Assembly (NCBI GenBank): GCA_964518165.1
Contig: CAZFFN010000126.1
Coordinates: 11,275-75,274 of the forward strand
Origin: an uncultured Thermoplasmatales archaeon
GTDB lineage: Archaea; Thermoplasmatota; E2; DHVEG-1
Length of the DNA stretch: 64,000 nucleotides
Direction of reading: 5' to 3'
A model generated the notes under the pieces. It made no database searches and was not told the origin of the DNA. It saw only the letters and a list, made by a program, of their open reading frames with translations. A program made the position numbers and the translations under genes. Below are positions 5,531 to 30,971 of this stretch, piece after piece. Every line of letters begins with the position of its first letter. The stretch's first letter is position 1.

Positions 5531-8500
5531 TTATTTTTTTCTTCTTGGAAAAATTAATACTAAAATAAGGATAATTATTACAATAAATATTGCAATTATA
5601 AACATATTTTTTTCCAAAAAACTTTGTTGTTTTACCTTGTTTGGATAACCAGTTGGTCCAAAAGGCATATGTCCATTGATATCAAATTCCTCATCGTATT
5701 CAACAGGTTTAGTATCTTCTTTTTCCCAATAATTGTTGTCACTATATTCAGTGCTTGGAACATATGGTCTAAGTTCTGGATCACCAAAATAGATGACACT
5801 TTCTTTATCATCCCACCACCATTGTGGGTTACCATCTTCTCCACCGCCGAGATAAAGTATTCCTACGTGTTGAATACCGCGGGCAAAAGCTTCACCAATA
5901 GTATAACCAAGTGCTAAATCACGAGGGATTGTTTCTCTCCAAACAGTTGCATACCAACTAGTAGCCCATGGGTCTTGGATTTGAAAAACTGAACCATGTC
6001 TAATTAACGATAATTGAAGCTGTGTGTACGCTGTTTGACAGATATTTGTAATAAATCCCATGCTGTAAAGATTATCAAGACCTTCGTCCAAAACAGATGC
6101 ATTTTTCATATCTGTAGTTTTTCTAGAAAATGAAAGTGAACCAGTTACACCATCATAAAGATTTTCAACTTCAAATGGAATATTTTCTTTATTGGGAAAT
6201 AATATTTTATTTATTTTTTCACGTATAGGTTTTCTTGCTAAAGCATAATCAAAACCAGTAGGCGGGAAGAATAATGAATTATGGTTTGTGAAAGGAATTA
6301 TTCCCTTGATATCCATAGTCATTGTATCAGGTTCTTCAGTTGAACCGAGATACCAGTCATATCCAAATTTTGGATTTAATTGCTTTGCTGGCCCTACCAA
6401 TAAATTGAAAAGATTTCCTGATTTTGTTTCCGGGTCCCAAAACTCAGTCTCGCCTCCTGCAGTATGATGCCCGTGGGCAGCATGAATCCACATTATGCAA
6501 CCATTATTGATGTTGTCCATAACTTTTTCAAACTGAGTGGAATAAACTGGATTATATCCACCTCTTTCTAAATAAAATGGGACCATCTCAGTTTCAGACA
6601 TATCTGGGAAATAAGCGCCTTTTTTACCAGTGTGTTTTTCAATTGATCCCATATCAATTGGTTCATTAGTTACAGATTCACCTGGAACTAGACCATCAGC
6701 ACATTCATATTTAGCACCATAGTATTTACTAGCTCTTTCATTAAATCTATATTTTTGAGTAACAAATGAACACATTACAGGGTTTTCTGCTTTGACCATT
6801 TGTTCTGGTGTATCAATAACAAGAGTACTTCCAATCGGATTTTTTAATAGACCTAAAATGCCTTGTCTTTTACTAGTACTCCCCGTAACATATGTTTTAT
6901 CTTCACTAAGTGCAGGGTTTTCAAAAATTAGAGCTGGATAAAACATATTACGTGAAATCCAGTAAGCTGAATCAACGGGACTTCCTGCAAATCTACCAGT
7001 GTTAGCAACTCCAATAAATACCCTGTCCCATGAAGCACCTATATCAAATTGATCAGCAACTGTTATAATATTTTCATCGCCTTCTTTATCAAAATTATGT
7101 TTATCCAAAAAATCATAAACCCTTCTACCGGTAAAGACCATTTCTCCACTGGAAGGAGTCCCACCATATCTATCATGAGAAAAATGCTCCCATAAAGTAT
7201 TATGATATGTAACAGCACAGGATAGTTCAGGATGCATATCTACAATCAAAACAGGTGTTCCGTGATGGGCTGCTACAAATGCAGCTGGGCCAATAAATAA
7301 TCCTGCTTCTGTTTCATCTGCCGGTGTTAACTCTTCTTTATACCAAAAGGTCCACGGATCAATTGTTGAAAATACAATATCGTTACTTCCAGATATTTTT
7401 CTAATGCTATCAAATATGTTTTCAATTTTTATGAAATTTTCTTTAATGTTTGCAATTTCTTCAAGGTTATTAAAAACATCTTTTGATATGTGATCACAGA
7501 AATTAACTAGATAAATATCTTTTACTCCTAGTTTAAATAATGCTTCTTTTGTTTTATCTGATAGTTTTTCTGAAGAAGTATATAGAAGAGGAGCATTTAG
7601 AGAACTAGCAAGAACTGCACCGTTAGTTGCAGAAGCAAGTGAGTCACCTTCAACTTTTGATATATTTTGCTCCCAAGAATATTCTATTTCAAAATCAAGA
7701 GGTGAATCAATATCATTTTTTGAAAAAACAGATACTGAATAATGCTCGTCATTTTTACATTCTCCTAAGGAATGTATTTTAACTTTCTGATGAGTCTCTT
7801 CTTCATTTTCTTCAAAAGCAGTATATATTGCTTCTCCACTAGGTCCAACTAGAGTAAAACCAAGATCTACATTTGGATTATCCCATTTTAATTTAATTTC
7901 AACATCCCTACAACCAAAAGGTGTTTGATCAGGAATCTTAATGTCTATACCTGGATACATTGTAACATCAACATGATAAGTTACACCAGGTTTAATCATA
8001 CCGCCAACTGTTCCTTGGAGTTGGAGTAAATTTCCTATTATATTTTTCCTAACATAATCAGCATCACCTTCAGTAGGCATATCAGTTACGCCAATACGCC
8101 ATTTACCAGGTTTATATATGTATGCATGGGCTGGTTCGTGACCTGCAGGTTGATAAACATTCCAAGCTGAAACAGCAGTAGTTTGAAGCCAACCTTGTTC
8201 GTCTTTACAATATATTTGCATGTCTGGATCGCCCGTAGGCATCATAATCCTGTCACCAATAAGAAGTCCATCCCACCAGCAATCTGCATATAAAAATTTA
8301 TACCCCTCAGGAATATCAAAGGTATGATAAATTGGGTTTAACGAGTTGGTTTGTTCTAAATTAAATGTCTCAATTTCATGTATTGAAGAAGCAGGAAGAG
8401 TTCTTTTTATGGTATTTTTAGTTTCAATATTCGGGGTTTCAAAATCTTTTTCAACTACAGATACAACTGCTTTATCTGAATAAGACCATTCATTTAAAGC

Positions 8501-8998
8501 AATTTTACTTGAGATACTATACGGGTCATCTCCATTTATGGATGTAGTTTTTTTAGCTTTCCAACTATTATCAATTTCTTTTTCATCTACATTTATAAGG
8601 GTCATCTGATCCATTTTTCCATTACAATAACTCATCCAGTCTTTCATAAAATAATCTAGACCCTGTCTAGAATTTAAAGTAACTTCTTTTTCTTTATTTG
8701 AAGTAAACTTATCTTGATAAAATAATAGTGGATTTGAATAAAGAGTATTGTCCTTTTTAAAAACAGATGTTGGAACTGATGCTAAGTACGCATAATCATC
8801 AAGATAGCTTTCTTTATCAAAATTGACAAAAGTTGCTTTTTTTAAGGGCTGTACATTTGTATAAGATGGACCTTTCATAAAACCAGGATCTTTTTGAATT
8901 TTTTCACTAGATACAAATGGACTAAAAACAGACGTCAAAAATAAACAAACAGTTAATAATATCATAACTTTTTTAATTTTTTCAAATTTTGCTTTCAT
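5531..8998 (-). CDS. Large secreted, C-terminally membrane-anchored surface protein (paralog A) with CWB2-like motifs and a conserved C-terminal domain of unknown function
   Basis: 1155 aa with an N-terminal signal peptide (MKAKFEKIKKVMILLTVCLFLTSVFSPFVSS) and a C-terminal TM plus basic tail (FIIAIFIVIIILILVLIFPRRKK). Motifs: DYAYLASVPTSVF...SNPLLF, GDSLASATNGAVLASSLNAPLLYT...LFKLGVKDIYLVN, GPAAFVAAHHGTPVLIVD, IMWIHAAHGHH, SMGF..C, DPWxTSWY, WWWD, HGHMPFG. A GGGGGT RBS is upstream. Confidence 0.8.
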   Translation of the reverse strand: MKAKFEKIKKVMILLTVCLFLTSVFSPFVSSEKIQKDPGFMKGPSYTNVQPLKKATFVNFDKESYLDDYAYLASVPTSVFKKDNTLYSNPLLFYQDKFTSNKEKEVTLNSRQGLDYFMKDWMSYCNGKMDQMTLINVDEKEIDNSWKAKKTTSINGDDPYSISSKIALNEWSYSDKAVVSVVEKDFETPNIETKNTIKRTLPASSIHEIETFNLEQTNSLNPIYHTFDIPEGYKFLYADCWWDGLLIGDRIMMPTGDPDMQIYCKDEQGWLQTTAVSAWNVYQPAGHEPAHAYIYKPGKWRIGVTDMPTEGDADYVRKNIIGNLLQLQGTVGGMIKPGVTYHVDVTMYPGIDIKIPDQTPFGCRDVEIKLKWDNPNVDLGFTLVGPSGEAIYTAFEENEEETHQKVKIHSLGECKNDEHYSVSVFSKNDIDSPLDFEIEYSWEQNISKVEGDSLASATNGAVLASSLNAPLLYTSSEKLSDKTKEALFKLGVKDIYLVNFCDHISKDVFNNLEEIANIKENFIKIENIFDSIRKISGSNDIVFSTIDPWTFWYKEELTPADETEAGLFIGPAAFVAAHHGTPVLIVDMHPELSCAVTYHNTLWEHFSHDRYGGTPSSGEMVFTGRRVYDFLDKHNFDKEGDENIITVADQFDIGASWDRVFIGVANTGRFAGSPVDSAYWISRNMFYPALIFENPALSEDKTYVTGSTSKRQGILGLLKNPIGSTLVIDTPEQMVKAENPVMCSFVTQKYRFNERASKYYGAKYECADGLVPGESVTNEPIDMGSIEKHTGKKGAYFPDMSETEMVPFYLERGGYNPVYSTQFEKVMDNINNGCIMWIHAAHGHHTAGGETEFWDPETKSGNLFNLLVGPAKQLNPKFGYDWYLGSTEEPDTMTMDIKGIIPFTNHNSLFFPPTGFDYALARKPIREKINKILFPNKENIPFEVENLYDGVTGSLSFSRKTTDMKNASVLDEGLDNLYSMGFITNICQTAYTQLQLSLIRHGSVFQIQDPWATSWYATVWRETIPRDLALGYTIGEAFARGIQHVGILYLGGGEDGNPQWWWDDKESVIYFGDPELRPYVPSTEYSDNNYWEKEDTKPVEYDEEFDINGHMPFGPTGYPNKVKQQSFLEKNMFIIAIFIVIIILILVLIFPRRKK

Positions 8999-9114: not shown

Positions 9115-12100
9115 TTATTTTTTACGACCCATAGCAACTAATACTAACAACAAAATAAAAATAATTACTATAATCGCTATTAACCAAATAGGTATTATTG
9201 GTTGGGGTTCTCTTTGGTTTGGATAATCTTTTGCACCAAATGGCATATGGCCATGTACTGAAAAATCTTCTTCTAAAATAGGTGATTCAACATCATCTAT
9301 TGTCCAATGGTTTTTTGATTCAGGATCCCATCTGCTCTCAGGTGCCCAAACACGTAAATCAGGATCACCAAAGAAAACAACGTTTTCATTTAAATCCCAC
9401 CACCATTGATCGACTAAGTACTGCATTCCAACTTCTGCCATACCTTGTTCATATGCTTCACCAATAGTATGGCCAAGAGCTATTTGACGCGGAATGGAAT
9501 GTAACCATATACCACTATACCATGATGTACTCCATGGGTCAAGTATCTGATAGCTAGTTCCATGCCTAATCATAACTTGATGTAAATATGTATATGCAAT
9601 AAGGCAAGAAACAGCATTAAAGCCCATGCTGTGAAGATTATCGAGATCCTCATCAAAATTAAGGCCGTTATATCCTGTTATTACATTTTCTCCACCGGCT
9701 AGAGGATCAATTACAACACCGTCTCCATATGCCCTGTAAGACCTTCCTATTATTGGTAAAAGACTCAGACCATTTGATTCCTTGATATGTAGATCAACTG
9801 GGAATGCATCAACTAGAAGTGATGGTTTAACCTGTGGATTCATTACTGCAACATCTGGATCTTCTGTGCTTCCTTTATCAACTGATATTAGATCAAGGGG
9901 TGTGCTTGCATAACTTGCTAATTTTAGTAAAAATGAAAAAGATGGTAGACCTGCTTTACTAAGCATATGTGGAAGGTGATTTAGAAATTCTTTGAATGTA
10001 CCTCTAGAAATTAAGGGACGTTCGTATGCTCTCCACGGATTTTCTTCATATACATAAGGGCTTTCGGGATCCCAGAAACTCAGAGTTCCGTAGTTACCAT
10101 TTCCTCCATGACAGCTTTCCATCCACATTATAGTTCCTTTATTAAGATTCTCAATTGCTTTTTCATATTGGGTTGAAAAAACGTTACTATAGCCTGCTTG
10201 TTGCCCATAAAACGGAGTGGCATATGTTTCATGAAGATCTGGGACATATGCTGCTGTTTTTCCTTCTACAGCACCCTGATCTATTGGATGCTTTGAAACT
10301 GTTTCATAGGGAATAATACCATTAGCTGTTGTGTATTTTCCACCCCAGTGTTTTTCTGCAGCTATCTCATTGAATTTATATAAATAAACATTATAGGTGT
10401 GTAACAATGGATATTTGTAGTTTTCTTCCATTTGTTCTTTTGTAATTACTAGATCAGTACCAATCGGATTCACAAGTTTACCCAATATTGGAACAACCTT
10501 ACTTGAACTTCCATTAACTAAATCAACTCCAGAAGGATCTAATGCAGGGTTTTCAAATATTAAAGCCGGATAGAAAACACTTCTTGATATCCAGTAACTG
10601 ATATCAACAGGTGTACTTGAAAATCTTCCTGGTATGAGTCTTCCTGTAAATGTTCTATCCCATGTTGAACCGATATCAAATTGATCAGCTACAGTAATCA
10701 TTGTAGAAAGGCCCTCTTTTGATTTTGAAAGATCATAATCATATGATTCAAGGAATTTTAATACATTTCTACCAGTCAAAACCATACTTGCAACTGACGG
10801 CAGATGAGGTCTAAATGATGCGTTTGCAGTATTTCTCCAAAATTCATTATGCCAGACAACCGCTTGAGATAGTTCAGGATGGTTATCAACTATTAAAACA
10901 GGTGCTCCATGATGAGCTGCTATAAAAGCTGCTGGTCCAAAAAAGTAAGCACCAGGATATTCACCAACGGGAACTGGATATAATGAATAATAATATGTCC
11001 ATGGATCAATTGTTGAAAAAACCACATCATCACTATTTGTATTTGATTTTATTTTATTGTATAATTCTAGGTAATCCGTGTATTCAGTAATTTTTGCAAT
11101 ATTTTTAATTTCATTTTTTACATCATTTTCTAAATAATTACCAACATTTAAAAGATGTATTTTTTTAACACCCAGTTTGTATAAGGCATCTTTTGTATCT
11201 TCCGGGATTTCATTGTTTTTAATATACAATAGAGGGGCATTTATATTACTAGCAAGAACTGCCCCATTTGTTGCAGAAGCTAGATTATCGCCTTTTTCTC
11301 TTGAAATATCTTTTTTCCACGAGTATTCTATTGTAAAATCAATTTCTTGATCCACATCTTCTAAAGCAAAAACACCTATCTTGTATCTTTCATCATCCTT
11401 TGTTTCACCAAGTTTTTCCAAATGTATCGTTCTCTCAGTAATCCCTTTTTCAACACCTTCTATAATTTCCTCATTAGAGGGCGTGGATGCTGTTTCTGCT
11501 CCAGTTGGATCAAGTACAAAGAAACCAAGTGGAACATTTGAGTTATCCCAATTTAAAGTGATTTCAACATCTCTACAGCCATAAGGAGTTGGATCTAAAA
11601 TTTCTTGTTCTATACCTGGGAATAAAGTAACTTCTACAGGTCGTGTATCACCTTTTTTAATTCCCATTTTTTTCAAAAGAGAATTGTCTTCTTCTACATT
11701 TTGATACATGCTTTCCATTTTTCCTTCTGGTGCTTTCTGAGTAGGCATATAAGTAACTCCTACCTCCCAGGTTCCATGGTTATAAACGTAAGAACTAGCT
11801 GTTTCTCCAGCCCCATAAAAAATATTCCATTTTGAATCTGCATCAGCCATACCAAGCTGGCTATCATATAATTGCAGATCAAGATCTATTGCAACGTTAT
11901 CCCAGAACATATGAGCAATAACATATTTGTAAGGCTCATTTATTTCAAAGGCTTTATAGCTCCCACCAACTCCAATTTCAGGGGTAGGAACATCTAAATT
12001 TATTGTATCTATTTTGTATCCCGATGGAATACTTCCTTTTAATTCTCCACTAAATGACTCTTTAGGTTTATCATATCCGTCTTTAACAATAGCAAGAACT

Positions 12101-12627
12101 GCTTCATCAGAATATGACCATTCTTTTTTAGCCAACTCACTTGATAGTTTGTAAGGATTAGAATAATCATAAGTATTGATTTTTTTTGCATCATATTTTT
12201 CTTCTAGTTCATTTTCAGCCATGCCAATTAAATTAAGTTCATCTAATTTTTCATCGCAATATCCCATCCAGTCATCCATAAAATATTCTACACCTTCTGA
12301 GGCATCTTGAATTTTATATTTGAGTTCATCTCCAAATTCATCTTTATCTTGATAGAAAATTAATGGATGAGAATATAGTTTATCATTATGATTAAAAACA
12401 GCAGTTGGAACACTTGCTAAATAAGCCAAATCATCAACAAGTTTTTCTTTGTTAAACTTAACTAAGCTTGTCTTTTTTAGAGGAACTACTTCTTCATAAG
12501 AAGCACCTTGTGTAAAGCCTTTTATATTTTCTAAATTTCCTGCATTTGCCATTGGTACAAAAATACTTGTTAAAAATATACATACAACTAATATTGATAT
12601 TAAATTTTTATCTATTTTCGCTTTCAT
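9115..12627 (-). CDS. Large secreted, C-terminally membrane-anchored surface protein (paralog B of 5531..8998)
   Basis: 1170 aa with the same architecture and motif set (YLASVPTAVF, GDNLASATNGAVLASNINAPLLY, GPAAFIAAHHGAPVLIVD, IMWMESCHGGNG, SMGFNAVSC, DPWSTSWY, WWWD, HGHMPFG). Signal peptide at the N-terminus, TM plus GRKK at the C-terminus, and a GGGGGT RBS. Confidence 0.8.
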   Translation of the reverse strand: MKAKIDKNLISILVVCIFLTSIFVPMANAGNLENIKGFTQGASYEEVVPLKKTSLVKFNKEKLVDDLAYLASVPTAVFNHNDKLYSHPLIFYQDKDEFGDELKYKIQDASEGVEYFMDDWMGYCDEKLDELNLIGMAENELEEKYDAKKINTYDYSNPYKLSSELAKKEWSYSDEAVLAIVKDGYDKPKESFSGELKGSIPSGYKIDTINLDVPTPEIGVGGSYKAFEINEPYKYVIAHMFWDNVAIDLDLQLYDSQLGMADADSKWNIFYGAGETASSYVYNHGTWEVGVTYMPTQKAPEGKMESMYQNVEEDNSLLKKMGIKKGDTRPVEVTLFPGIEQEILDPTPYGCRDVEITLNWDNSNVPLGFFVLDPTGAETASTPSNEEIIEGVEKGITERTIHLEKLGETKDDERYKIGVFALEDVDQEIDFTIEYSWKKDISREKGDNLASATNGAVLASNINAPLLYIKNNEIPEDTKDALYKLGVKKIHLLNVGNYLENDVKNEIKNIAKITEYTDYLELYNKIKSNTNSDDVVFSTIDPWTYYYSLYPVPVGEYPGAYFFGPAAFIAAHHGAPVLIVDNHPELSQAVVWHNEFWRNTANASFRPHLPSVASMVLTGRNVLKFLESYDYDLSKSKEGLSTMITVADQFDIGSTWDRTFTGRLIPGRFSSTPVDISYWISRSVFYPALIFENPALDPSGVDLVNGSSSKVVPILGKLVNPIGTDLVITKEQMEENYKYPLLHTYNVYLYKFNEIAAEKHWGGKYTTANGIIPYETVSKHPIDQGAVEGKTAAYVPDLHETYATPFYGQQAGYSNVFSTQYEKAIENLNKGTIMWMESCHGGNGNYGTLSFWDPESPYVYEENPWRAYERPLISRGTFKEFLNHLPHMLSKAGLPSFSFLLKLASYASTPLDLISVDKGSTEDPDVAVMNPQVKPSLLVDAFPVDLHIKESNGLSLLPIIGRSYRAYGDGVVIDPLAGGENVITGYNGLNFDEDLDNLHSMGFNAVSCLIAYTYLHQVMIRHGTSYQILDPWSTSWYSGIWLHSIPRQIALGHTIGEAYEQGMAEVGMQYLVDQWWWDLNENVVFFGDPDLRVWAPESRWDPESKNHWTIDDVESPILEEDFSVHGHMPFGAKDYPNQREPQPIIPIWLIAIIVIIFILLLVLVAMGRKK

Positions 12628-13901: not shown

Positions 13902-15926
13902 ATGATTAAAAATAATATTATGTTGTTTAAATCTATAAAAGCTAATCTTATCTTCTTTGTAATAATTTTATTGGTCATTCAATCATTATCAAGCTTTGCA
14001 ATCGGCATAAATACAAAAAATATACAGACCAAAGAAGAAAAAAGAAGTTCGTCATTAAAAAATAGTTTTATAATTGAGTTTAAGGATGAATCTATCTTAT
14101 CTTTTAGAGGAAAAATCAAAAATTTTTTATCAAATAGTAATATATTACAAGGAAATTTTTTAAAAGATAAAGTTGAACAATATAAATCAAAACTTGATTC
14201 AATGCATTTAAAGGCAAAGTTAGATATTCTTAATATCCTTGGATCAAGTTATACAATTAAAGATCTATTTACCCATGATTTTAAACTTTTTTCAAACTCT
14301 TTGGTAATAAAAAATATTCCAAATAATGTGATTGATTCTATAAAATCCTTAGATTATGTTAAAAATGTAAGAGTTCCAAAAAAAATAAAGATGCAATCTG
14401 ATCCTCTATCTTGGGGGGTAAGTAAGATAAATGCAGATCAAGTTTGGAACTTACATGATAATAAAGGTAGAAAAATAAATGGAGAAGGAATAAGTATCGC
14501 AATAATTGATACGGGTATTGATTATGATCACAGTCTATTAGGTGGAGGATTTGGACCAGGTTATACAGTTGTCGATGGAGATGATTTTGTTGAATATAAT
14601 AGATACGATGAAGAAAATGAAGTTTGGTATGAAAAGCTTCCAGAAGATGATCATGATCCAGATGACGAACAGGGACATGGTACACATTGTGCTGGAATAG
14701 CCTTAGGTGTTGCACCAGGTGCTTCACTTTATGCTTATCGTGTTCTAAATAAAGACGGCTGGGGAGATGAAAATTGGCTTCAAGAAGCTATAACTCGAGC
14801 AACTGATCCAAATGGGGATTTTGATATTTCAGATCATGTTGATATACTATCATTAAGTTTTGGAACAGTTAGCGAAGGAAAACCAGATGACAATATGAGC
14901 AAATGGGTCAATCAAGCGGTTGATTGCGGAGTAACAGTAGTTGCTGCAGCTGGAAATAATGGTTCTAATTATCATACAATTAGTTCACCAGGTTGTGCAG
15001 AAAAAGCAATAACTGTTGGAAATTCTAATTCTTATGATAGGGTAGATCCTAGTAGTTCAAGAGGCCCAACTTTGAATGGAAAAACTAAACCAGATCTAGT
15101 AGCACCCGGTATGCATATAGAAAGCACATGGTTAAATAACGGGTTTAAAACATTGTCAGGAACAAGTATGTCTACTCCTCATGTTGCTGGAGCTACTGCA
15201 CTTCTTTTGCAGTTGCATCCTGACTTTTCTCCAAATGATGTTAAAGAAACTCTAAAACAAAATGCTGTTAAATTATTTGCCCCAAATGGATCGATTTATG
15301 ATGAGTTTACTCAAGGCGCTGGAAGAATTGATATACTTAAATCAGTTAATCTATCAGAAGCACCACCAATTGCTGAATTAGAAATTTCAGAATATGTAAA
15401 AAAAGGTATAATAAATATAAATGGTACTGCTATGAATGGAACTGGAAATTCAAGTGATTTTACTAATTTTAGTTTGTACTATAAATACGATGAAGATTGG
15501 ATAGAACTATGTACAAAAACTCAAGAGATTGATGATTCATTAATGTATGAATGGGACACAACACATTTTGAAAAAGGTCTTTACAAACTGAAATTATTTG
15601 TAAGAAGTAAAGATCAGGCTAGTGTAGATATTAAAGAGATAAATATTGATTATGATGGTTTAATTATTGAGTGTAATGAAAGTTTCTTTGAAGATGAGGA
15701 GATTAAAGTAGATATTTTTAATGTAAATATGGAACCAGTAGATTGTTTTGTATTTTTTATTCCAAAGTTTCATCTCCCTCAAATTAGATACGGAAGTACA
15801 GTTCAATTTAGGGGACCAACCTTATATAATCCATTAAAACAGAATATTACTGGTAAAATTTTTGCAATTAAATTACTAAAATTTGAAACAAAAGGTAAAG
15901 AGATAGAGATAAAAAATATTGTTTAA
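13902..15926 (+). CDS. Secreted subtilisin-like serine protease (S8) with N-terminal propeptide and C-terminal extension
   Basis: Signal peptide, then IAIIDTGIDYDH (Asp), HGTHCAGIA (His), GTSMSTPHVAGATALL (Ser) and a catalytic Asn region. Confidence 0.9.
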   Translation: MIKNNIMLFKSIKANLIFFVIILLVIQSLSSFAIGINTKNIQTKEEKRSSSLKNSFIIEFKDESILSFRGKIKNFLSNSNILQGNFLKDKVEQYKSKLDSMHLKAKLDILNILGSSYTIKDLFTHDFKLFSNSLVIKNIPNNVIDSIKSLDYVKNVRVPKKIKMQSDPLSWGVSKINADQVWNLHDNKGRKINGEGISIAIIDTGIDYDHSLLGGGFGPGYTVVDGDDFVEYNRYDEENEVWYEKLPEDDHDPDDEQGHGTHCAGIALGVAPGASLYAYRVLNKDGWGDENWLQEAITRATDPNGDFDISDHVDILSLSFGTVSEGKPDDNMSKWVNQAVDCGVTVVAAAGNNGSNYHTISSPGCAEKAITVGNSNSYDRVDPSSSRGPTLNGKTKPDLVAPGMHIESTWLNNGFKTLSGTSMSTPHVAGATALLLQLHPDFSPNDVKETLKQNAVKLFAPNGSIYDEFTQGAGRIDILKSVNLSEAPPIAELEISEYVKKGIININGTAMNGTGNSSDFTNFSLYYKYDEDWIELCTKTQEIDDSLMYEWDTTHFEKGLYKLKLFVRSKDQASVDIKEINIDYDGLIIECNESFFEDEEIKVDIFNVNMEPVDCFVFFIPKFHLPQIRYGSTVQFRGPTLYNPLKQNITGKIFAIKLLKFETKGKEIEIKNIV

Positions 15927-18682: not shown

Positions 18683-19276
18683 TTATTTTACAGATTCATA
18701 TTTATGAGTGACATGTGAAAAAGATTCAGATCCTCCTTCACAGGAAACTGTCCAACCACAAAGTTCAACTTTTTCATCAATTACATCACCGGAATCATCA
18801 TAAGTATATACTGTTTTTAAATTAATTCTAGTTTTAATTTTTAGACTTCCTTTTAAAACAAGTTTTTCATCTTCAAAAATCAGTATATCTACCTGGTATG
18901 CATCATCAGATAACATTAATGGTATTTCAATTTCTTTTGTTGAATCTGCATTTATTTTTCCAACTAACACAGTATTTTTACAGTCAGCTACTTTATTACT
19001 TTCTTTTACAACATAGGCAACTATCTTTATTTTACCTGACTCTTTACTCCATATATTTGTAAGATAAGGCGTACAAGTTATATTTATTGTTGTGTTAGTT
19101 TCTTCAGTTTTCAATAAATATATTTCTTCAACAAATAGATGTTTTTCAGGTAATTGGGGTTCTGCTTCAACTGGTTTTTCAAATAGTATAGTAAATGCTC
19201 CAAATATTGCAATTAATGCTACTGCGATTGTTACTAGAAAGATACTAGCTTTTTTGAATTTTTTACTTACATTCAT
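18683..19276 (-). CDS. N-terminally membrane-anchored or secreted hypothetical protein
   Basis: A signal/anchor (IFLVTIAVALIAIFGAFTILF) is followed by a beta-rich extracellular region with 4 Cys. Confidence 0.5.
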   Translation of the reverse strand: MNVSKKFKKASIFLVTIAVALIAIFGAFTILFEKPVEAEPQLPEKHLFVEEIYLLKTEETNTTINITCTPYLTNIWSKESGKIKIVAYVVKESNKVADCKNTVLVGKINADSTKEIEIPLMLSDDAYQVDILIFEDEKLVLKGSLKIKTRINLKTVYTYDDSGDVIDEKVELCGWTVSCEGGSESFSHVTHKYESVK

Positions 19277-20454: not shown

Positions 20455-22146
20455 GTGAGACATAAATTTTTTGATGTAAAAAAAGGTGTTTTTTTTGTAG
20501 TGAGTATATTGTTTTTGATGAATATTTTTATGCCGGTTACAAATAGCATAAAATTAAATTCAAGTTCAAATAATAAAGATTTTTCAATAATTATTCACAA
20601 AATATTTCAAGATGATGAAATTGATCCCTTTCCCCATTTAGAAGGCGGAGATTGGAAACTATCTATATATGTAAATGATGAAAAAAGAACTTTAGAATGC
20701 TCAGGGAAAGAAGTAATACTTGATAAAATACTTGTTTGGGAAGATATCATTCAAGAGAATATGAAATTTTTAGAGATAAGATTTGAACTTTTAGATTTAG
20801 ATTCTGGTGTTTGGCCTGATGAACATGATATTGCAGATATTAGCGCATATGCTGATGAAAACTATTATGATGGCAAATATGATGATACAGAAGATTTTGA
20901 AAATAATAGACCTGCTGTTTTTAAAAGATATTACAATCTTGTAAGCGAGAAATGGGAGGAAGTAGACAATAATAATGATTACTTACAAGAGGTGCAAGAA
21001 TCATATTTAACATGGTTTCTTACTAGTGGTAATTTTGATGGGAGTACTACAACAGATGAAAACGATGTTTCAATTTGGTTTGATATATCAATTGGGAACT
21101 CTGCTCCATTTCCACCAGAAACACCATCGGGGCCTACCTCTGGATGGGTAGATCAGATTTATTTGTACACTACAAAAACCAATGATCCAGATAATGATAA
21201 AATAAAATATGGATGGGATTGGGATGGAGATGATGAAATTGATCAAATAACTGATTTTTTTGACCCTTGGGAATCTGCTGATGTTTATCATGGATGGTCC
21301 ACTGGTAAAATCAACTATGTTAAAGTCTGTGCAATAGATGAAAAAGGTGCGGTAAGTGAATGGTCCAATGAATTAAAGGTAGAAATTAATGGACCATATG
21401 GCAAAAGTGGATTTGAACTTGAAGAATGGTCATTAGGAGAAATATATTGTGTATATCTTGATCATTATGAAACAACTGAACTATTAGATATATTAAGAGG
21501 CGGTGGAAATATTGTTACTGCCGCTGCAGGGTTGATTTCGGCTATTGCAACTGCTGCCGGGGTTCCACTAGACATAAGCATTTCTATTGCAATAGTAACT
21601 GGAATTTTGAGGCTTGGAGTTGAAGTTATCAACCTTATGGATAGAGGTATGGGTATTTATGTAAAAACGTATATTGTAATGCTTGAAGGTGTTCCACTTT
21701 CATATTTTTCAGTAATGTGGTCTCAGTCTTTAGGGGATGATGCGTGGAGTATACCTGATGGGAATCAAGCTCCAAATACACCTAATAAACCCATTGGCGA
21801 AATAAAATGTAAAAAGGGTAAATCGTATACTTTTACTAGTGTTTCTGATGATCCAAATGATGATAAAATTGCTTATGTTTTCGAATGGGGCGATGGAACC
21901 TATAGTTGTGTTGATTATAATAATTCAGGTGAATCAGTTAGTCAAAAACATAATTGGTCTGAAATAGGAGAATATAATATTCGAGTGAAAGCAATTGATA
22001 TTTATGGTTATGAAAGCAAGTGGTCTGAACCATTAAACATTGAAATTAATAAAAAGAGTAAGATCAAATTCTTTTTGAAATTAGAAAATTTTTATGAGGT
22101 ATTTAAAAATGTTTTTGGAAAAGAAATTTGTAGAGAGGTGATATAA
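20455..22146 (+). CDS. Secreted protein with two PKD-like modules (GTG start)
   Basis: GTG start with GGGGG 7 nt upstream. Signal peptide, two approximately 90-aa modules (DPDNDKIKYGWDWDGD...; DPNDDKIAYVFEWGDG...HNWSEIGEYNIRVKAIDIYGYESKWSEP), and an internal Gly/Ala-rich hydrophobic stretch. Confidence 0.7.
   Translation: MRHKFFDVKKGVFFVVSILFLMNIFMPVTNSIKLNSSSNNKDFSIIIHKIFQDDEIDPFPHLEGGDWKLSIYVNDEKRTLECSGKEVILDKILVWEDIIQENMKFLEIRFELLDLDSGVWPDEHDIADISAYADENYYDGKYDDTEDFENNRPAVFKRYYNLVSEKWEEVDNNNDYLQEVQESYLTWFLTSGNFDGSTTTDENDVSIWFDISIGNSAPFPPETPSGPTSGWVDQIYLYTTKTNDPDNDKIKYGWDWDGDDEIDQITDFFDPWESADVYHGWSTGKINYVKVCAIDEKGAVSEWSNELKVEINGPYGKSGFELEEWSLGEIYCVYLDHYETTELLDILRGGGNIVTAAAGLISAIATAAGVPLDISISIAIVTGILRLGVEVINLMDRGMGIYVKTYIVMLEGVPLSYFSVMWSQSLGDDAWSIPDGNQAPNTPNKPIGEIKCKKGKSYTFTSVSDDPNDDKIAYVFEWGDGTYSCVDYNNSGESVSQKHNWSEIGEYNIRVKAIDIYGYESKWSEPLNIEINKKSKIKFFLKLENFYEVFKNVFGKEICREVI
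21112..21390 (+). repeat. PKD-like protein module copy 1 (in gene 20455..22146)
   Basis: Protein-level repeat DP-x-x-D-x-I-x-Y-x-[WF]-[DE]-W-[GND]-D... ...V-[KR]-[VA]-[KC]-A-x-D-x-x-G-x-x-S-x-W-S. Confidence 0.6.
21766..22047 (+). repeat. PKD-like protein module copy 2 (in gene 20455..22146)
   Basis: Same motif set: YVFEWGDGTY ... NIRVKAIDIYGYESKWSEPLNI. Confidence 0.6.
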
Positions 22147-22176
22147 ATTAAAAAAAATTTTTTAATCATATTTTTA

Positions 22177-23721
22177 ATGATTTTTTGTTTGGTTGGGAGT
22201 ATATATGCTGGTGCAATAAAAATAGATAAAGAAAATAATGAAATTCTAAATAAAACAATTAATGCTAATTCTTCCTGGACTTTAATGATTTATTTGGATG
22301 GTGATAATAATCTTGAAAGCAGTGCAATAGATGATTTTTTAGAAATGTCTGCTGTAGGATCTACTGAAAATGTTAATATTGTAGTCCAGTTTGATAGGGT
22401 TGATGGGTATGATTACTCGTTTGGGGATTGGACTAGTTGTAAAAGATTCCATATTTTAAAAGATATGGTTCCAACTCCAGAAAATGCTATAATGGATATC
22501 GGGGAAGCAAATATGGGTGACCCTCAAGAACTTATAGATTTTGCAACCTGGTCAATGAGTAATTTTCCAGCTGAAAAATATTGTTTAATTCTTTGGGATC
22601 ATGGATCAGGTTGGAAACTATCTAATAAAAATGGGAGAAAAGATATTTGTGAAGATATTACTAATTATGATGTTCTAAAATTATATGAGTTAAAAAATGC
22701 TCTATCAGAGATTACATCTGATTCTTCATTTAAGATTGACTTACTAGGCTTTGATGCTTGTTTGATGGGTGAAATTGAAGTTGCTTACGAATTAAAAAAT
22801 TTTTGTAATTTCTTTACTGCTTCAGAAAATACAGAGCCTGCAGACGGATGGAATTATGAAGATTCTTTAGCTGATTTAATTGATAATTATGAAAACACAG
22901 ATGGTGAAAAACTTGGCGAATATTTTGTAACACATTATGAAGGGTATCAGATTACATTATCAACAATAGATGTTTCAAATTTGAATGCGTTAACAGATGC
23001 TATCAGTAATCTTGCTTCAGCTTTATCTTCTTCAGAATATATAGATAAAGTTCTAAATGTTTTTAGTAATGTTGAAAAATATATGGAATCTTGTGATATA
23101 TATCATTTTGCTCAGTTGATATCTGAAAATATTTATGATTATGCAATTCAACAATATTCTGAGGAGGTAAAAAATGAAATCGAATACACGGTTACTTCTG
23201 AAAAACATGATAGTTATAATGAAAATTCACATGGGCTTTCGATATATTTACCTGATTGTACATATGATCACGAATATGATAGTTTGGATTTTTCAACTAA
23301 TGGTTTGTGGGATGATTTTTTAATCTATATTTTTGAAGGTGCTACTTCAAGTAATCCACCAACTATACCCATTATAAATGGCATAAGTGAAGGAGAAGCA
23401 GGTACGACACATCGTTATACTTTTCAGTCATCTGATCCAGAAGGAGATGATATATATTATGTAATTGACTGGAATGATGGATCTCAACATGAAATAATTG
23501 GTCCAAAAGCAACAGGTGTTGAGATAGAAGCATATCATGTTTGGTATGACCAAGGAGGATATGTTTTACGAGCTAAAGCAGTTGATTCAAATGGAGCTGC
23601 TAGTTCATGGAGTACCTTTAATATAATGATGCCCAGGATAAAAAATAGTTTCAGAGATAGTTTGAAATTACCTTTCTTAAGAAATATATTTGAGATTTTT
23701 AATATTGGAGAGGATTTTTAA
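22177..23721 (+). CDS. Clostripain-family (C11, clan CD) cysteine peptidase with a C-terminal PKD-like module
   Basis: WTLMIYLDGDNNLE N-terminal motif, LILWDHGSGW (His-Gly) and LLGFDACLMG (Asp-Ala-Cys). The C-terminal module is DPEGDDIYYVIDWNDGS...YVLRAKAVDSNGAASSWS. Confidence 0.8.
   Translation: MIFCLVGSIYAGAIKIDKENNEILNKTINANSSWTLMIYLDGDNNLESSAIDDFLEMSAVGSTENVNIVVQFDRVDGYDYSFGDWTSCKRFHILKDMVPTPENAIMDIGEANMGDPQELIDFATWSMSNFPAEKYCLILWDHGSGWKLSNKNGRKDICEDITNYDVLKLYELKNALSEITSDSSFKIDLLGFDACLMGEIEVAYELKNFCNFFTASENTEPADGWNYEDSLADLIDNYENTDGEKLGEYFVTHYEGYQITLSTIDVSNLNALTDAISNLASALSSSEYIDKVLNVFSNVEKYMESCDIYHFAQLISENIYDYAIQQYSEEVKNEIEYTVTSEKHDSYNENSHGLSIYLPDCTYDHEYDSLDFSTNGLWDDFLIYIFEGATSSNPPTIPIINGISEGEAGTTHRYTFQSSDPEGDDIYYVIDWNDGSQHEIIGPKATGVEIEAYHVWYDQGGYVLRAKAVDSNGAASSWSTFNIMMPRIKNSFRDSLKLPFLRNIFEIFNIGEDF
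23350..23634 (+). repeat. PKD-like protein module (in C11 peptidase gene)
   Basis: YYVIDWNDGSQ ... YVLRAKAVDSNGAASSWSTFNI. Confidence 0.6.
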
Positions 23722-23723
23722 AA

Positions 23724-26101: not shown

Positions 26102-27037
26102 TTGAATAAAAAAGACAAACAGAAAATCGAATATAAAACAAAGTGTCCTGAATGCGGCAGTATAAACCTTGCAAAAAATTATAGTAGGGGTGAAATTGTT
26201 TGTGAAGATTGCGGTCTTGTGGTAACCGAAGACTTAGCAGATCATGGTCCAGAGTGGCGTGCTTTTGATAGTGAACAACATAAAAAGAAAGCAAGAGCAG
26301 GACCACCAATGAAATATACCATACATGATAAAGGATTAAGCACAGCTATAAGCTGGAAAAATAGAGATGCATATGGTAGATCAATCCCTACAAAAAACAG
26401 AGGGCAAATTTACAGACTTAGAAAATGGCAGAGAAGGACAAGAATAAGTAGCGCATCTGAAAGAAGTCTTGCTGAGGCTTTTTCTGTTCTAAGTAGAATT
26501 TCATCTAGAATGAATCTACCTAGAAGCATTAGAGAAAGAGCAGGAATGCTTTACAGGCAAGCAGCTAAAAAGAACTTAATTAGGGGTAGAAGTGTAGAAA
26601 TCGTAGTTGTAGCAACAATATATGCGGCCTGTAGGCTAGCAGGTATGCCAAGAACACTTGACGAGATTAGTAGTATAACCAGCATTTCTAGAAGAGATAT
26701 TGGTAGAACATATAGATTTGTAGTCAGAGAACTCAAGCTTAAAATGGCTGTTCCTTCACCACTTGATTATATTACTAGATTTATAGGGGATTTAAATCTC
26801 AGCCAGAAAGTAAAAAAGAAATCCGTAGATATTTTAAATCTAGCTATCGAAAAAGAATTAACTAGTGGTAGAGGCCCGGTTGGTGTTGCAGCTGCATCGA
26901 TATATATTGCTTCAGTTATATCTGGTGAAAGAAGAACTCAAAAAGAAATATCTGATGTAGCAAGAGTTACAGAAGTTACAATAAGAAACAGATACAAGGA
27001 ATTAGCTAGAAAACTGGACATACGAATGGAAATCTAA
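26102..27037 (+). CDS. tfb: Transcription initiation factor IIB (TFB), copy 1, TTG start
   Basis: 311 aa with a Zn ribbon (CPECGS...CEDCG), B-finger/linker and two cyclin folds. No in-frame ATG precedes the Zn ribbon. The TTG start makes its N-terminal length equal to TFB copy 2, and GAGGG lies 6 nt upstream. Confidence 0.85.
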
Positions 27038-30035: not shown

Positions 30036-30971
30036 ATGAAAAATAAAGAAATAAATTCAATAGAGGAAATAATTGAATGCCCTGAATGTAAAAGCGAAAA
30101 ACTTACAAAAGATTACAACAGAGCAGAAATTGTCTGTAACAGATGTGGCCTTGTTATAGACGAAAACTTAATAGATTACGGTCCAGAGTGGCGTGCTTTT
30201 GATAGCGAACAAAAACAAAAAAGAGCAAGAACAGGAATGCCAATGACACCATTAATGCATGATAAAGGACTTACAACCACAATAGATTGGAAAAATAGAG
30301 ACTTTTATGGAAGATCAATACCAAACAGAAATAGATCTAGAGTATATAGGCTAAGAAAATGGCAGAGAAGGCTTAGAACAAGCCAATACCAAGAACGAAA
30401 CCTAATGGAAGCACTAAGAAACCTTGATAGAATGTCTTCTTCCCTTGCACTTCCAAGATCGGTAAGGGAAAACTCAGCAATGATTTATAGAAAAGCAATG
30501 GATAAAAACCTAATTAGAGGTAGAAGCATAGATGGAGTAGTTGCTGCAACGATATATGCAGCATGTAGACAATGTAATGTTCCAAGAACACTTGATGAAA
30601 TAAGCCAAAAAACAGGGATAAAAAGAAAAGAAATTGGTAGAAACTATAGACATATAAATAAATCATTAAAACTAAACCTCAGACCAACTAAACCAAAACA
30701 ATACTTAACACGATTCTGTAACGATCTTGACTTAAGTTCAAAAACTAGAGCAAAAGCCGACAATATCCTAAAAAAAGCTACAAATAAAGAACTTGTAAGT
30801 GGCAGAGGACCAATAGGACTTGCTGCTGCATCATTATACATGGCATCTGTTTTATCAGGTGAAAAAAGAACCCAGAAAGAAATCGCAGAAACATCAGGTG
30901 TTACAGAAGTTACAATTAGAAATAGATACAAAGAACTAGCTGATAGATTAAGCATTAAAATTGCAGTATAA
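30036..30971 (+). CDS. tfb: Transcription initiation factor IIB (TFB), copy 2
   Basis: 311 aa, collinear with copy 1 (CPECKS...CNRCG Zn ribbon, GPEWRAFD, cyclin repeats). Confidence 0.9.

What the first reader, a model, noticed from the sequence alone, without database searches (positions are those of the whole stretch)
7500..7650. Clostridial-type CWB2-like cell-wall-binding motifs in archaeal proteins
Both giant paralogs contain two stretches (DDYAYLASVPTSVF...SNPLLF near the N-terminus; GDSLASATNGAVLASSLNAPLLYTSSEKLSDKTKEALFKLGVKDIYLVN mid-protein; same in paralog B around 11190-11300) that closely follow the CWB2 consensus (..DALSA.PLAAKLNAPILLT......L..LG.K.V.I.GG) known from Clostridioides S-layer/Cwp proteins. 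In an archaeon this suggests either a polymer-binding anchoring module for the cell envelope or horizontal acquisition from Firmicutes.
Basis: partly seen in the sequence, partly recalled or inferred. Interest (0 to 1): 0.5.

Follow-up and report, generated by a model that had tools for sequence, protein, structure and literature searches.

The report
Archaeal gingipain-like protease with CWB2 prism
The flagged motif belongs to a real, three-repeat copy of the bacterial "CWB2" cell-wall-anchoring module, built into two large membrane-anchored, gingipain-like surface proteases of a sediment archaeon; it matters because this module was known only as a wall anchor of Gram-positive bacteria and its ligand in archaea is unknown.

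Summary
Window 7500-7650 (- strand) encodes aa 450-500 of a 1155-aa protein, paralog A (5531-8998). Paralog B (9115-12627, 1170 aa, 44% identical) has the same stretch. Pfam CW_binding_2 is only sub-threshold (19.8 and 15.9 bits, cut-off 24.9). A profile of this segment from 36 homologs hits Cwp6 at E=8e-10. It also hits thousands of proteins in 1.84 billion; 10 of 10 tested carry three PF04122 repeats.

The family is widespread in Thermoplasmatota, and the same architecture occurs in Asgard archaea, so recent transfer from Firmicutes is not supported. Whether the prism binds a surface polymer is untested. I rate it a new variant of a known kind, of moderate interest.

The parts
5531..8998 (-). 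Paralog A, 1155 aa. Order of parts: signal peptide, CWB2 prism (three repeats, with a double beta-sandwich inserted in repeat 2), small beta domain, C25-like peptidase, C-terminal membrane helix.
   Evidence: ORF and translation. Identical protein P0001 in public data. AF2 full-length model pLDDT 90, pTM 0.91.
8906..8998 (-). N-terminal signal peptide, about aa 1-31 (MKAKFEKIKKVMILLTVCLFLTSVFSPFVSS).
   Evidence: Read from the sequence: basic n-region, then a hydrophobic helix at aa 2-25 in the model. No dedicated predictor was run.
8546..8857 (-). CWB2 repeat R1 (aa 48-151).
   Evidence: Secondary structure b54-59, a66-78, hairpin, b91-94, a103-124, b129-135, b148-154. hhalign to CWB2 repeats is in register but weak, P=0.013. 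It is part of the 256-267 residues superposed on the Cwp8/Cwp6/SlpA prisms. P90 is invariant in 116 sequences.
8441..8545 (-). N-terminal part of CWB2 repeat R2 (aa 152-186): 'INGDDPYSISSKIALNEWSYSDKAVVSVVEKDFE', the leading helix and strand beta1.
   Evidence: It aligns with the 'ri.G..Ry.Ta..ia' start of a bacterial CWB2 repeat in hhalign. The Pfam hit at aa 445-508 begins at profile position 13, so beta1 is missing there. The construct that joins aa 188 to aa 444 folds with pLDDT 90.9 and pTM 0.93.
7664..8440 (-). Two beta-sandwich (PPC / jelly-roll-like) domains, aa 187-445, inserted in the beta1-alpha1 loop of R2.
7427..7663 (-). C-terminal part of CWB2 repeat R2 (aa 446-524). This is the flagged stretch (nt 7500-7650), with the PILL-type core P470-L-L-Y473.
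   Evidence: Pfam PF04122 19.8 bits. Profile vs Cwp6 E=8.3e-10. Hits to PF04122 x3 proteins. hhalign 98.8%. A457, N468, P470 and G491 are invariant.
6899..7426 (-). CWB2 repeat R3 (aa 525-700), enlarged by a loop (aa 546-565) and extra helices. Motif 'GLFIGPAAFVAAHHGTPVLIV' at aa 566-586 with PILL-type core P582-V-L-I585.
   Evidence: hhalign vs CWB2 repeats P=0.001, in register. Included in the prism superposition. It is the most conserved region of the family: A576, H579, W603, W657, R659, G663, G668, P674 and D676 are invariant.
6755..6898 (-). Small beta domain or linker (aa 701-748) between the prism and the peptidase.
   Evidence: DSSP on the model shows strands 701-745. Not characterised further.
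5744..6754 (-). Gingipain-like (C25, clan CD) cysteine peptidase domain, aa 749-1085, with an insertion of about 105 aa between the catalytic His and Cys.
6470..6475 (-). Candidate catalytic His842-Gly843 ('WIHAAHG').
   Evidence: Invariant in 116 sequences. It sits at the end of strand 836-840. It aligns with 'WYYADHG' inside the C25 Pfam match of P0269, in a weak HSP.
6038..6040 (-). Candidate catalytic Cys987 ('GFITNICQ').
   Evidence: Invariant in 116 sequences. It sits at the end of strand 980-984. It aligns with the Cys of 'FMAC' in P0269.
5549..5611 (-). C-terminal transmembrane helix (about aa 1130-1150), followed by a basic tail PRRKK.
   Evidence: Sequence. Helix 1132-1154 in the model. 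Conserved hydrophobic stretch plus an RKK tail in the family consensus.
9115..12627 (-). Paralog B, 1170 aa, 44% identical to A, same architecture, directly upstream in tandem.
   Evidence: Six-frame scan with CWB2 HMMs: only A and B hit in the window.
11071..11307 (-). Paralog B, R2 core (aa 441-519), 'GDNLASATNGAVLASNINAPLLY...'.
   Evidence: Pfam PF04122 15.9 bits at aa 449-484. Custom CWB2 HMM E=2.3e-15.
12355..12435 (-). Paralog B, R1 motif (aa 65-91), 'DDLAYLASVPTAVFNHNDKLYSHPLIF'.
   Evidence: Sequence, aligned with R1 of A.
10882..10932 (-). Paralog B, R3 motif (aa 566-582), 'PAAFIAAHHGAPVLIVD'.
   Evidence: Sequence. Weak in-register match to CWB2 HMM positions 29-45, i-E=5.4, not significant. 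Alignment with A.

Best explanation
Identity (shown, from profiles and predicted structures). Both genes encode type-I surface proteins of a Thermoplasmatota (MBG-D/Thermoprofundales-like) archaeon. Each has a Sec-type signal peptide, a large acidic ectodomain and one C-terminal membrane helix.

The N-terminal 700 residues are a genuine three-repeat CWB2 module. It folds into the same intertwined triangular prism as the wall-anchoring module of C. difficile Cwp6, Cwp8 and SlpA. Only repeat 2, the flagged stretch, is still recognisable by sequence. Repeat 2 is split by two PPC/jelly-roll-like beta-sandwich domains.

The C-terminal third is a gingipain-like C25 (clan CD) cysteine peptidase with an invariant His-Gly...Cys dyad.

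How it most likely works (inferred). The membrane helix tethers the enzyme to the cell. The CWB2 prism acts as a rigid base that docks non-covalently onto a cell-surface glycopolymer or a glycosylated surface-layer component, and so fixes the height and orientation of the protease in the envelope. The beta-sandwich pair projecting from repeat 2 helps to hold substrates. The C25 domain cuts extracellular (detrital) proteins into peptides, which are then imported, for example by the OPT transporter encoded 20 kb away.

My confidence in the identity part is about 0.9. My confidence that the prism binds a surface polymer is about 0.35-0.4.
For: CWB2 homology of R2:
- Pfam is sub-threshold in both paralogs and in 18 of 40 homologs.
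- The segment profile hits Cwp6 at E=8.3e-10, matching all three Cwp6 repeats, and Cwp8 at 8.3e-5.
- It finds 2728 hits in 1.84 billion proteins. The non-family ones are mostly three-stretch proteins, and 10 of 10 tested are PF04122 x3.
- hhalign gives 98.8% probability.

Triplication and prism:
- A PILL-type core is present and conserved in all three repeats. That motif is required in each repeat for anchoring in C. difficile (PMC4973711).

Peptidase:
- H842, G843 and C987 are invariant.
- C25 Pfam hits are above cut-off in the Asgard relatives P0269 and P0198, which share R1, R2+R3 and the Cys region with paralog A.

Surface location: signal peptide and C-terminal membrane helix.

Proteolytic context: a subtilase next door, a clostripain and an OPT transporter in the window. 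C25 peptidases are reported as present and expressed in Thermoprofundales MAGs (PMC6461988).
Against: - Neither paralog reaches the Pfam cut-off for CWB2, and neither gives any C25 hit on its own.
- R1 and R3 are not significant by sequence (P=0.013 and 0.001). The triplication therefore rests on AlphaFold models, one of them of a spliced construct. AlphaFold may have learned the CWB2 prism from the PDB.
- My CWB2 repeat alignment was assembled from hits to the query's own profile, which inflates the hhalign score. Pfam confirmed those proteins independently.
- For the function: no ligand is known. No cell-wall polymer is known for these uncultured archaea. No glycopolymer gene cluster lies in the window.
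- The membrane helix makes a wall anchor dispensable.
- The prism is strongly acidic: net charge -25 +/- 9, against -4 +/- 12 for bacterial CWB2 triples. This argues against simple electrostatic binding of an anionic polymer such as PSII.
- The high pTM of the full-length model (0.91) fits a purely structural role equally well.
Confidence: 0.6

Rival explanations
1. Structural pedestal or tile. The CWB2 prism has no glycan ligand here. It serves as a rigid scaffold that holds the protease and the beta-sandwich domains at a fixed distance from the membrane. It may also let neighbouring molecules pack side by side, as SlpA prisms tile in the C. difficile S-layer.
For: - The membrane helix already anchors the protein.
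- The full-length model is one compact body, pTM 0.91.
- R1 and R3 keep little of the consensus beyond the buried PILL strand, which is a core element of the fold.
- The prism is strongly acidic.
- SlpA prisms tile through complementary faces without needing an ordered glycan (PMC8881574).
- Genomes carry tandem arrays of 2-4 paralogs.
Against: - R3 is the most conserved part of the family and has many invariant polar residues: H578, H579, H589, H599, D658, R659, D676. That looks like a functional site rather than pure scaffolding.
- In every characterised case the prism is a polymer-binding module (PMC4973711).
- No lattice prediction was made.
Confidence: 0.3
2. Substrate targeting. The prism recognises bacterial secondary cell-wall polymers in sediment necromass and steers the protease onto wall-associated proteins of dead Gram-positive cells.
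For: - The only known ligands of CWB2 are bacterial wall polymers (PMC4973711).
- These archaea are thought to live on detrital protein (PMC6461988).
- PPC-like domains in secreted proteases often bind substrates. This is my own knowledge; the fold match is.
Against: - A membrane-tethered enzyme has little reach.
- The acidic prism fits anionic wall polymers poorly.
- There is no direct evidence of any kind.
Confidence: 0.07
3. Recent horizontal acquisition of a CWB2 cassette from Firmicutes by this archaeon.
For: - CWB2 is overwhelmingly a Firmicute and Actinobacterial module (PMC5817068).
- The two genes have slightly higher G+C (0.33-0.35) than most of the window, which is about 0.30.
Against: - 223 relatives were found in the genome collection; the 79 loci kept are all from Thermoplasmatota MAGs, often with several paralogs each.
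- The complete architecture is shared with Odin-, Thor- and Prometheoarchaeota proteins.
- Structure-based identity to Cwp proteins is only 16-18%.
- Two repeats are beyond sequence recognition, and the module carries a lineage-specific 260-aa insertion.
- An ancient transfer, in either direction, is not excluded.
Confidence: 0.03
4. Chance resemblance confined to the short 'LNAPLL' core of an unrelated Rossmann-like domain.
For: Single-sequence Pfam scores are below the gathering cut-off. No significant internal repeat was detected between the three segments.
Against: - Profile E-values of 1e-10 to 1e-21 against bona fide CWB2 proteins.
- hhalign alignment over 65 columns.
Confidence: 0.01

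Closest known systems
CWB2 anchoring module of Clostridioides difficile cell-wall proteins (Cwp6 5j72, Cwp8 5j6q, SlpA HMW subunit 7acy/7acz; Pfam PF04122)
   Same: - Each repeat has a P[ILV][ILV]x core.
- The module is fused to an enzymatic effector domain on the cell surface.
- Repeat 2 is significantly similar in sequence.
   Different: - The host is an archaeon with no known wall polymer.
- Repeats 1 and 3 are unrecognisable by sequence.
- Repeat 2 is interrupted by a 260-aa double beta-sandwich, and repeat 3 is enlarged.
- The module is strongly acidic.
- The protein has its own membrane anchor.
- The ligand is unknown.
Gingipains RgpB/Kgp and PorU of Porphyromonas gingivalis (MEROPS/Pfam family C25, clan CD)
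   Same: - His-Gly and Cys at the ends of adjacent strands.
- An extracellular, cell-associated protease accompanied by beta-sandwich domains.
   Different: - No Pfam C25 hit for the two window proteins themselves.
- An insertion of about 105 aa between His and Cys. The spacing is 145 aa here, 79 aa in P0269, and about 33 aa in RgpB (the RgpB figure is from my own knowledge).
- No T9SS C-terminal domain; a membrane helix instead.
- A CWB2 prism at the N-terminus, where gingipains have a pro-domain.
- Substrate specificity is unknown.
Cwp84 / Cwp13 of C. difficile: cysteine proteases carrying three CWB2 repeats (my own knowledge; proteases among the Cwps are mentioned in PMC5817068)
   Same: The logic of a surface cysteine protease joined to a CWB2 triple.
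   Different: - The Cwp84 protease is papain-like (C1A), not clan CD.
- It is bacterial, held by the wall polymer PSII, and has no membrane helix.
- It is not related in the catalytic domain.
Extracellular C25/C11 peptidases reported from MBG-D / Thermoprofundales genomes (Lloyd et al. 2013, my own knowledge; PMC6461988)
   Same: Same lineage. The homologs P0081 and P0106 are MBGDN05_00117 and MBGDN05_00116 of the MBG-D single-cell genome SCGC AB-539-N05. The proposed role is the same: degrading sedimentary protein.
   Different: I found no paper that describes the CWB2 prism, the split repeat or the domain architecture. I could not verify that these exact genes are the ones called gingipain in those studies.

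Membership tests
CWB2 module (Pfam PF04122 CW_binding_2) | Single-sequence score at or above the Pfam gathering cut-off (24.9 bits) | tested here: not met
   A scores 19.8 bits (E=0.0012) and B 15.9 bits (E=0.019), one stretch each. 18 of 40 homologs hit, all below the cut-off, best E=5e-4.
CWB2 module (Pfam PF04122 CW_binding_2) | Significant homology to bona fide CWB2 repeats at profile level | tested here: met
   For repeat 2: Cwp6 E=8.3e-10 and Cwp8 E=8.3e-5. Hits at E<=1e-13 to proteins that are PF04122 x3, 10 of 10 tested. hhalign 98.8%, E=1.4e-16. For repeats 1 and 3 only P=0.013 and P=0.001.
CWB2 module (Pfam PF04122 CW_binding_2) | Three repeats forming one pseudo-threefold, intertwined prism | tested here: met
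   [not shown]
CWB2 module (Pfam PF04122 CW_binding_2) | Conserved P[ILV][ILV][LV] ('PILL') core in every repeat (PMC4973711) | tested here: met
   R1 P90-L-L-F, R2 P470-L-L-Y, R3 P582-V-L-I. P90 and P470 are invariant and P582 is at least 90% conserved in 116 sequences. The fourth position is F or Y in R1 and R2 instead of L or V.
CWB2 module (Pfam PF04122 CW_binding_2) | Three contiguous tandem repeats of about 90-100 aa | tested here: not met
   Repeat 2 is interrupted by about 260 aa (two beta-sandwich domains, aa 187-445). Repeat 3 is about 175 aa.
CWB2 module (Pfam PF04122 CW_binding_2) | Non-covalent binding to a secondary cell-wall polymer (PSII-type) and a matching polymer-synthesis locus in the genome | not testable with these tools
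   No ligand data exist. No glycopolymer cluster lies in the 64-kb window; the rest of the genome was not examined. The acidic net charge is weak evidence against an anionic ligand.
Peptidase family C25 (gingipain; clan CD) | Pfam PF01364 score at or above the cut-off (23 bits) | tested here: not met
   A and B give no hit at E<=10. 8 of 40 homologs are sub-threshold, best 22.1 bits. The homologous Asgard proteins P0269 (47.8 bits) and P0198 (23.6 bits) pass.
Peptidase family C25 (gingipain; clan CD) | Gingipain-type catalytic-domain fold | tested here: met
   [not shown]
Peptidase family C25 (gingipain; clan CD) | Catalytic His(-Gly) and Cys at the C-terminal ends of neighbouring strands | tested here: met
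   H842, G843 and C987 are invariant in 116 sequences and sit at the ends of strands 836-840 and 980-984. C987 aligns with the 'AC' Cys of P0269, within its C25 Pfam match. Residue-by-residue equivalence to RgpB His211/Cys244 was not available from the tools.
Peptidase family C25 (gingipain; clan CD) | Endopeptidase activity and Arg/Lys specificity | not testable with these tools
   Needs enzyme assays.
PPC / pre-peptidase C-terminal-type beta-sandwich (PF04151) | Pfam hit or fold match | tested here: inconclusive
   [not shown]
PGF-CTERM / archaeosortase-sorted surface proteins | PGF motif at the start of the C-terminal helix; NCBIfam or Pfam hit | tested here: not met
   A and B give no hit. 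One homolog (P0113) has a weak hit, E=0.29. The conserved 'GHMPFG' lies about 20 aa before the helix.

The most novel reading that the evidence does not exclude
The CWB2 prism may be an old, widespread building block of archaeal cell envelopes in Thermoplasmatota and Asgard lineages. Its conservation there would then imply one of two things: a so far undiscovered non-covalently bound surface glycopolymer, an archaeal counterpart of secondary cell-wall polymers; or these abundant, tandemly amplified proteins tile through their prisms into a protease-bearing surface lattice. Either would change how the envelopes of these uncultured sediment archaea are pictured.
Probability: 0.15. Interest if true: 0.75.

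Novelty: new variant of a known kind. Interest (0 to 1): 0.5.

Why it matters
CWB2 is treated in the literature as a wall-anchoring device of Gram-positive bacteria that works through a specific anionic wall polymer (PMC4973711, PMC5817068). Here a complete but highly diverged CWB2 prism sits in archaea that have no known wall polymer. It is fused to the gingipain-like proteases that have been invoked for protein degradation by the very abundant MBG-D/Thermoprofundales sediment archaea. It is conserved as far as Asgard archaea.

This matters in three ways:
- It gives a structural annotation to about 1150-aa proteins that are mostly labelled 'hypothetical'.
- It yields a concrete, testable question about the envelope of uncultured archaea: what does the prism bind?
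- It shows that two of the three repeats, and the peptidase itself, escape standard Pfam annotation. The distribution of CWB2 and of C25 peptidases in archaea is therefore probably underestimated.

Tried and rejected
- Internal-repeat test by hhalign between the three motif-bearing segments of the family: no significant similarity, P 0.05-0.15. Triplication could not be shown from sequence.
- Full-length family profile against PDB sequences: only Cwp6 at E about 1e-3 and no gingipain. The domain-restricted profile was needed.
- I first entertained a contiguous R2, with the last sandwich strand (aa 434-444) serving as beta1. I preferred the split-repeat model for three reasons: the Pfam match starts at profile position 13; aa 152-186 align with the start of a CWB2 repeat; and the spliced construct folds and superposes at 3.0-3.6 A.
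I used the spliced window sequence with full-length homologs instead.
- phmmer of the Odinarchaeota relative against the PDB found nothing useful. The catalytic residues therefore could not be mapped residue by residue onto RgpB.
- Rfam found no RNA genes in the window.
- Literature searches for CWB2 together with archaea, PF04122 or Peptidase_C25 found no description of this architecture.
Full report
1. What is at the coordinates

Window 5531-8998 and 9115-12627, both on the - strand, are two tandem ORFs of 1155 aa (paralog A) and 1170 aa (paralog B). They are 44% identical. Nt 7500-7650 encode aa 450-500 of A, '...EGDSLASATNGAVLASSLNAPLLYTSSEKLSDKTKEALFKLGVKDIYLVN'. B carries the equivalent stretch at aa 446-494.

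Both proteins begin with a basic-then-hydrophobic signal peptide. Both end with a hydrophobic helix followed by RKK. They are thus surface proteins tethered by a C-terminal membrane helix.

2. The host is an archaeon

The window carries two TFIIB genes, Nop56/58, archaeal-type Pus10, Tyw1, a GPN-loop GTPase and Hef. Protein A is identical to a public protein on a 95-kb contig.

The family has about 485 members at 90% clustering, nearly all about 1150 aa and nearly all unannotated. Two members are MBGDN05_00117 and MBGDN05_00116 of the Marine Benthic Group D single-cell genome SCGC AB-539-N05, which by their tags are neighbouring genes. NCBI names one member 'cell wall-binding repeat-containing protein'.

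A scan of one genome per prokaryotic species found 223 relatives. The 79 loci retrieved are all from Thermoplasmatota or Thermoplasmata MAGs. Seventeen of these 79 loci carry 2-4 co-oriented tandem copies.

3. Is the mid-protein stretch CWB2?

With single sequences, Pfam CW_binding_2 is the top hit but stays below its gathering score: A 19.8 bits and B 15.9 bits against a cut-off of 24.9, one stretch each. Among 40 homologs, 18 behave the same way.

I then built a 36-sequence profile of aa 436-545 (A3).
- Against all PDB sequences it hits Cwp6 at E=8.3e-10, matching each of the three Cwp6 repeats. It hits Cwp8 at E=8.3e-5 and SlpA weakly.
- Against 1.84 billion representative proteins it finds 2728 proteins at E<=1e-3. 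After its own family (one stretch near residue 430-560 of about 1150-aa proteins), most hits are matched in three stretches.
- Ten of ten of those tested are bona fide PF04122 x3 proteins (E 1e-40 to 1e-85), with amidase, GH18, glucosaminidase, LRR or esterase partners.
- hhalign of the family segment against 269 such repeats gives 98.8% probability and E=1.4e-16 over 65 columns, far more than the LNAPLL core.

One caveat applies. That repeat set was collected with the query's own profile, which favours the score. Pfam, however, confirmed the proteins independently.

Conclusion: repeat 2 is a genuine CWB2 homolog.

4. Is it triplicated?

Sequence alone does not show it. The three motif-bearing segments are not significantly similar to each other. 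Against true CWB2 repeats, the N-terminal segment reaches only P=0.013. A third segment that I noticed (aa 538-700, 'GLFIGPAAFVAAHHGTPVLIV') reaches P=0.001, while five control segments give P 0.12-0.56. Both weak alignments are nevertheless in register on the 'DAL..plAa..naPiLLt' motif. In addition, aa 152-186 ('INGDDPYSISSKIALNEWSYSDKAVVSVVEKDFE') align with the 'ri.G..Ry.Ta..ia...vvla' start of a CWB2 repeat.

Structure settles the question. AlphaFold2 on a 116-sequence alignment gives a confident full-length model, pLDDT 90 and pTM 0.91. Its parts are:
- an alpha/beta region at aa 48-181;
- two beta-sandwiches at aa 191-444;
- an alpha/beta region at aa 448-700;
- a small beta unit;
- an alpha/beta peptidase-like domain at aa 750-1080.

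My assignment of the repeats is:
- R1 = aa 48-151;
- R2 = aa 152-186 + 446-524, with the two beta-sandwiches inserted in its beta1-alpha1 loop;
- R3 = aa 525-700.

Each repeat keeps a P[ILV][ILV]x core (PLLF, PLLY, PVLI), with the proline invariant or nearly so. In C. difficile that motif is required in every repeat for anchoring (PMC4973711).

5. What the rest of the protein is

His842-Gly843 and Cys987 are invariant in 116 sequences. They lie at the ends of adjacent strands, as in clan-CD enzymes.

Pfam Peptidase_C25 does not hit A or B. It hits 8 of 40 homologs below threshold. It hits more distant relatives above threshold: P0269 from Odinarchaeota at 47.8 bits and P0198 from Promethearchaeota at 23.6 bits.

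BLASTP of A against P0269 aligns three regions: R1 (E=3e-13), R2+R3 (E=2e-17) and the Cys region (E=2e-5). In the last of these, C987 lies opposite the 'AC' cysteine of P0269. The full architecture is therefore shared with Asgard archaea.

The inserted sandwiches resemble the Tk-SP jelly-roll domain, collagenase CBD/PPC domains and GOLD domains. Relatives pass the Pfam PPC cut-off at the equivalent position.

6. Function

Shown (from profiles and predicted structures, not experiment): an extracellular, membrane-tethered protein that combines a CWB2 prism with a C25-type catalytic domain carrying an intact dyad.

Inferred: it cleaves extracellular protein. This fits the neighbourhood, which has a subtilase next door and a clostripain and an OPT peptide transporter within 25 kb. 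It also fits reports that Thermoprofundales encode and express C25 peptidases (PMC6461988).

The role of the prism is open. By analogy it docks on a surface glycopolymer or glycoprotein and fixes the protease in the envelope. I give this about 0.35-0.4. Several points weigh against it:
- the membrane helix makes such an anchor dispensable;
- no polymer is known for these archaea and no synthesis cluster lies in the window;
- the prism is strongly acidic, with net charge -25 +/- 9 against -4 +/- 12 for bacterial triples. This fits an anionic PSII-like ligand poorly.

A purely structural pedestal or tile is the main rival, at about 0.3. A role in targeting bacterial wall debris is possible but unsupported.

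Recent transfer from Firmicutes is unlikely, given the breadth of the family, the Asgard relatives, the low identity (16-18% in the structural alignments) and the lineage-specific insertion. An ancient transfer cannot be excluded.

7. Comparison with what is known, and novelty

The protein works like a Cwp-type surface enzyme: an effector domain plus a CWB2 triple. C. difficile even has CWB2-anchored cysteine proteases, although those are papain-like.

It passes the structural and profile tests for a CWB2 module. It fails three formal ones: the Pfam cut-off, contiguous repeats, and a known ligand. It passes the fold and dyad tests for C25 but not the Pfam cut-off.

I found no paper describing CWB2 in archaea or joined to a C25 peptidase. 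I therefore class it as a new variant of a known kind: known parts, in a new combination and a new host domain, with an unusual split repeat.

Limits

All structural statements rest on AlphaFold models, one of them of a spliced construct. No coordinates were available for inspecting residues. No experiment exists.

Noticed in passing
window 6899-7426 (-), paralog A aa 525-700 (repeat R3): R3 is the most conserved part of the whole family. It carries a cluster of invariant or nearly invariant polar residues: His578, His579, His589, His599, Trp657-Asp658-Arg659, Asp676 and Arg683. Ordinary CWB2 repeats do not have these. It looks like a functional site (metal or ligand binding, or the contact with the peptidase), but I could not map it in 3D.
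   Followed up: partly
window 13902-15926 (+): A 674-aa subtilase (Peptidase_S8, E=6e-59) lies about 1.3 kb from paralog B on the opposite strand, with a Tyw1-like radical SAM gene in between.
   Followed up: partly
window 20455-25865 (+): A clostripain-family peptidase (C11, E=7e-52) at 22177-23721 is flanked by two large co-oriented ORFs with no Pfam match (20455-22146, 563 aa; 23724-25865, 713 aa). An OPT oligopeptide transporter lies at 32178-34223 (-). Together with the two C25-like genes and the subtilase, this makes a protease-rich 30 kb.
   Followed up: partly
window 26102-27037 and 30036-30971 (+): Two TFIIB (TFB) paralogs sit 3 kb apart, separated by an HAD hydrolase and an MscS-type channel.
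   Followed up: no
window 6120-6435 (-), paralog A aa 855-960: About 105 aa are inserted between the catalytic His and Cys. The spacing is 145 aa here and 79 aa in the Odinarchaeota relative. The insert is mostly coil with lower model confidence, yet it contains invariant residues: N875, P876, Y880, G885, T887, P890, D891, D949 and G950. Its role is unknown.
   Followed up: no
window 5657-5674 (-), paralog A aa 1109-1114: A conserved 'GHMPFG' motif lies in the stalk about 20 aa before the membrane helix. It recalls a PGF-CTERM sorting signal but is not positioned like one, and no PGF-CTERM model matches A or B.
   Followed up: partly
loci L020, L024, L033, L041, L047, L057 and 11 others: Related Thermoplasmatota MAGs carry tandem arrays of 2-4 co-oriented paralogs of this family, and single MAGs carry up to 4 separate loci. 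The family is strongly amplified.
   Followed up: partly
proteins P0198, P0218, P0269, P0274: Asgard archaea (Promethearchaeota, Odinarchaeota/Odinarchaeia, Thorarchaeota) encode proteins with the same R1, insert, R2, R3, C25 layout. Some have extra CUB, PPC and Ig-like domains, and some are 1750-1780 aa long (P0165, P0167).
   Followed up: partly
[not shown]
   Followed up: no
window 18683-19276 (-): A 197-aa ORF gives a sub-threshold match to the archaeal DUF7490 (24.6 bits, cut-off 27).
   Followed up: no
whole window: No Rfam family reaches its gathering score anywhere in the 64 kb, so there are no tRNA, rRNA or other known RNA genes. G+C is about 0.26-0.36.
   Followed up: yes
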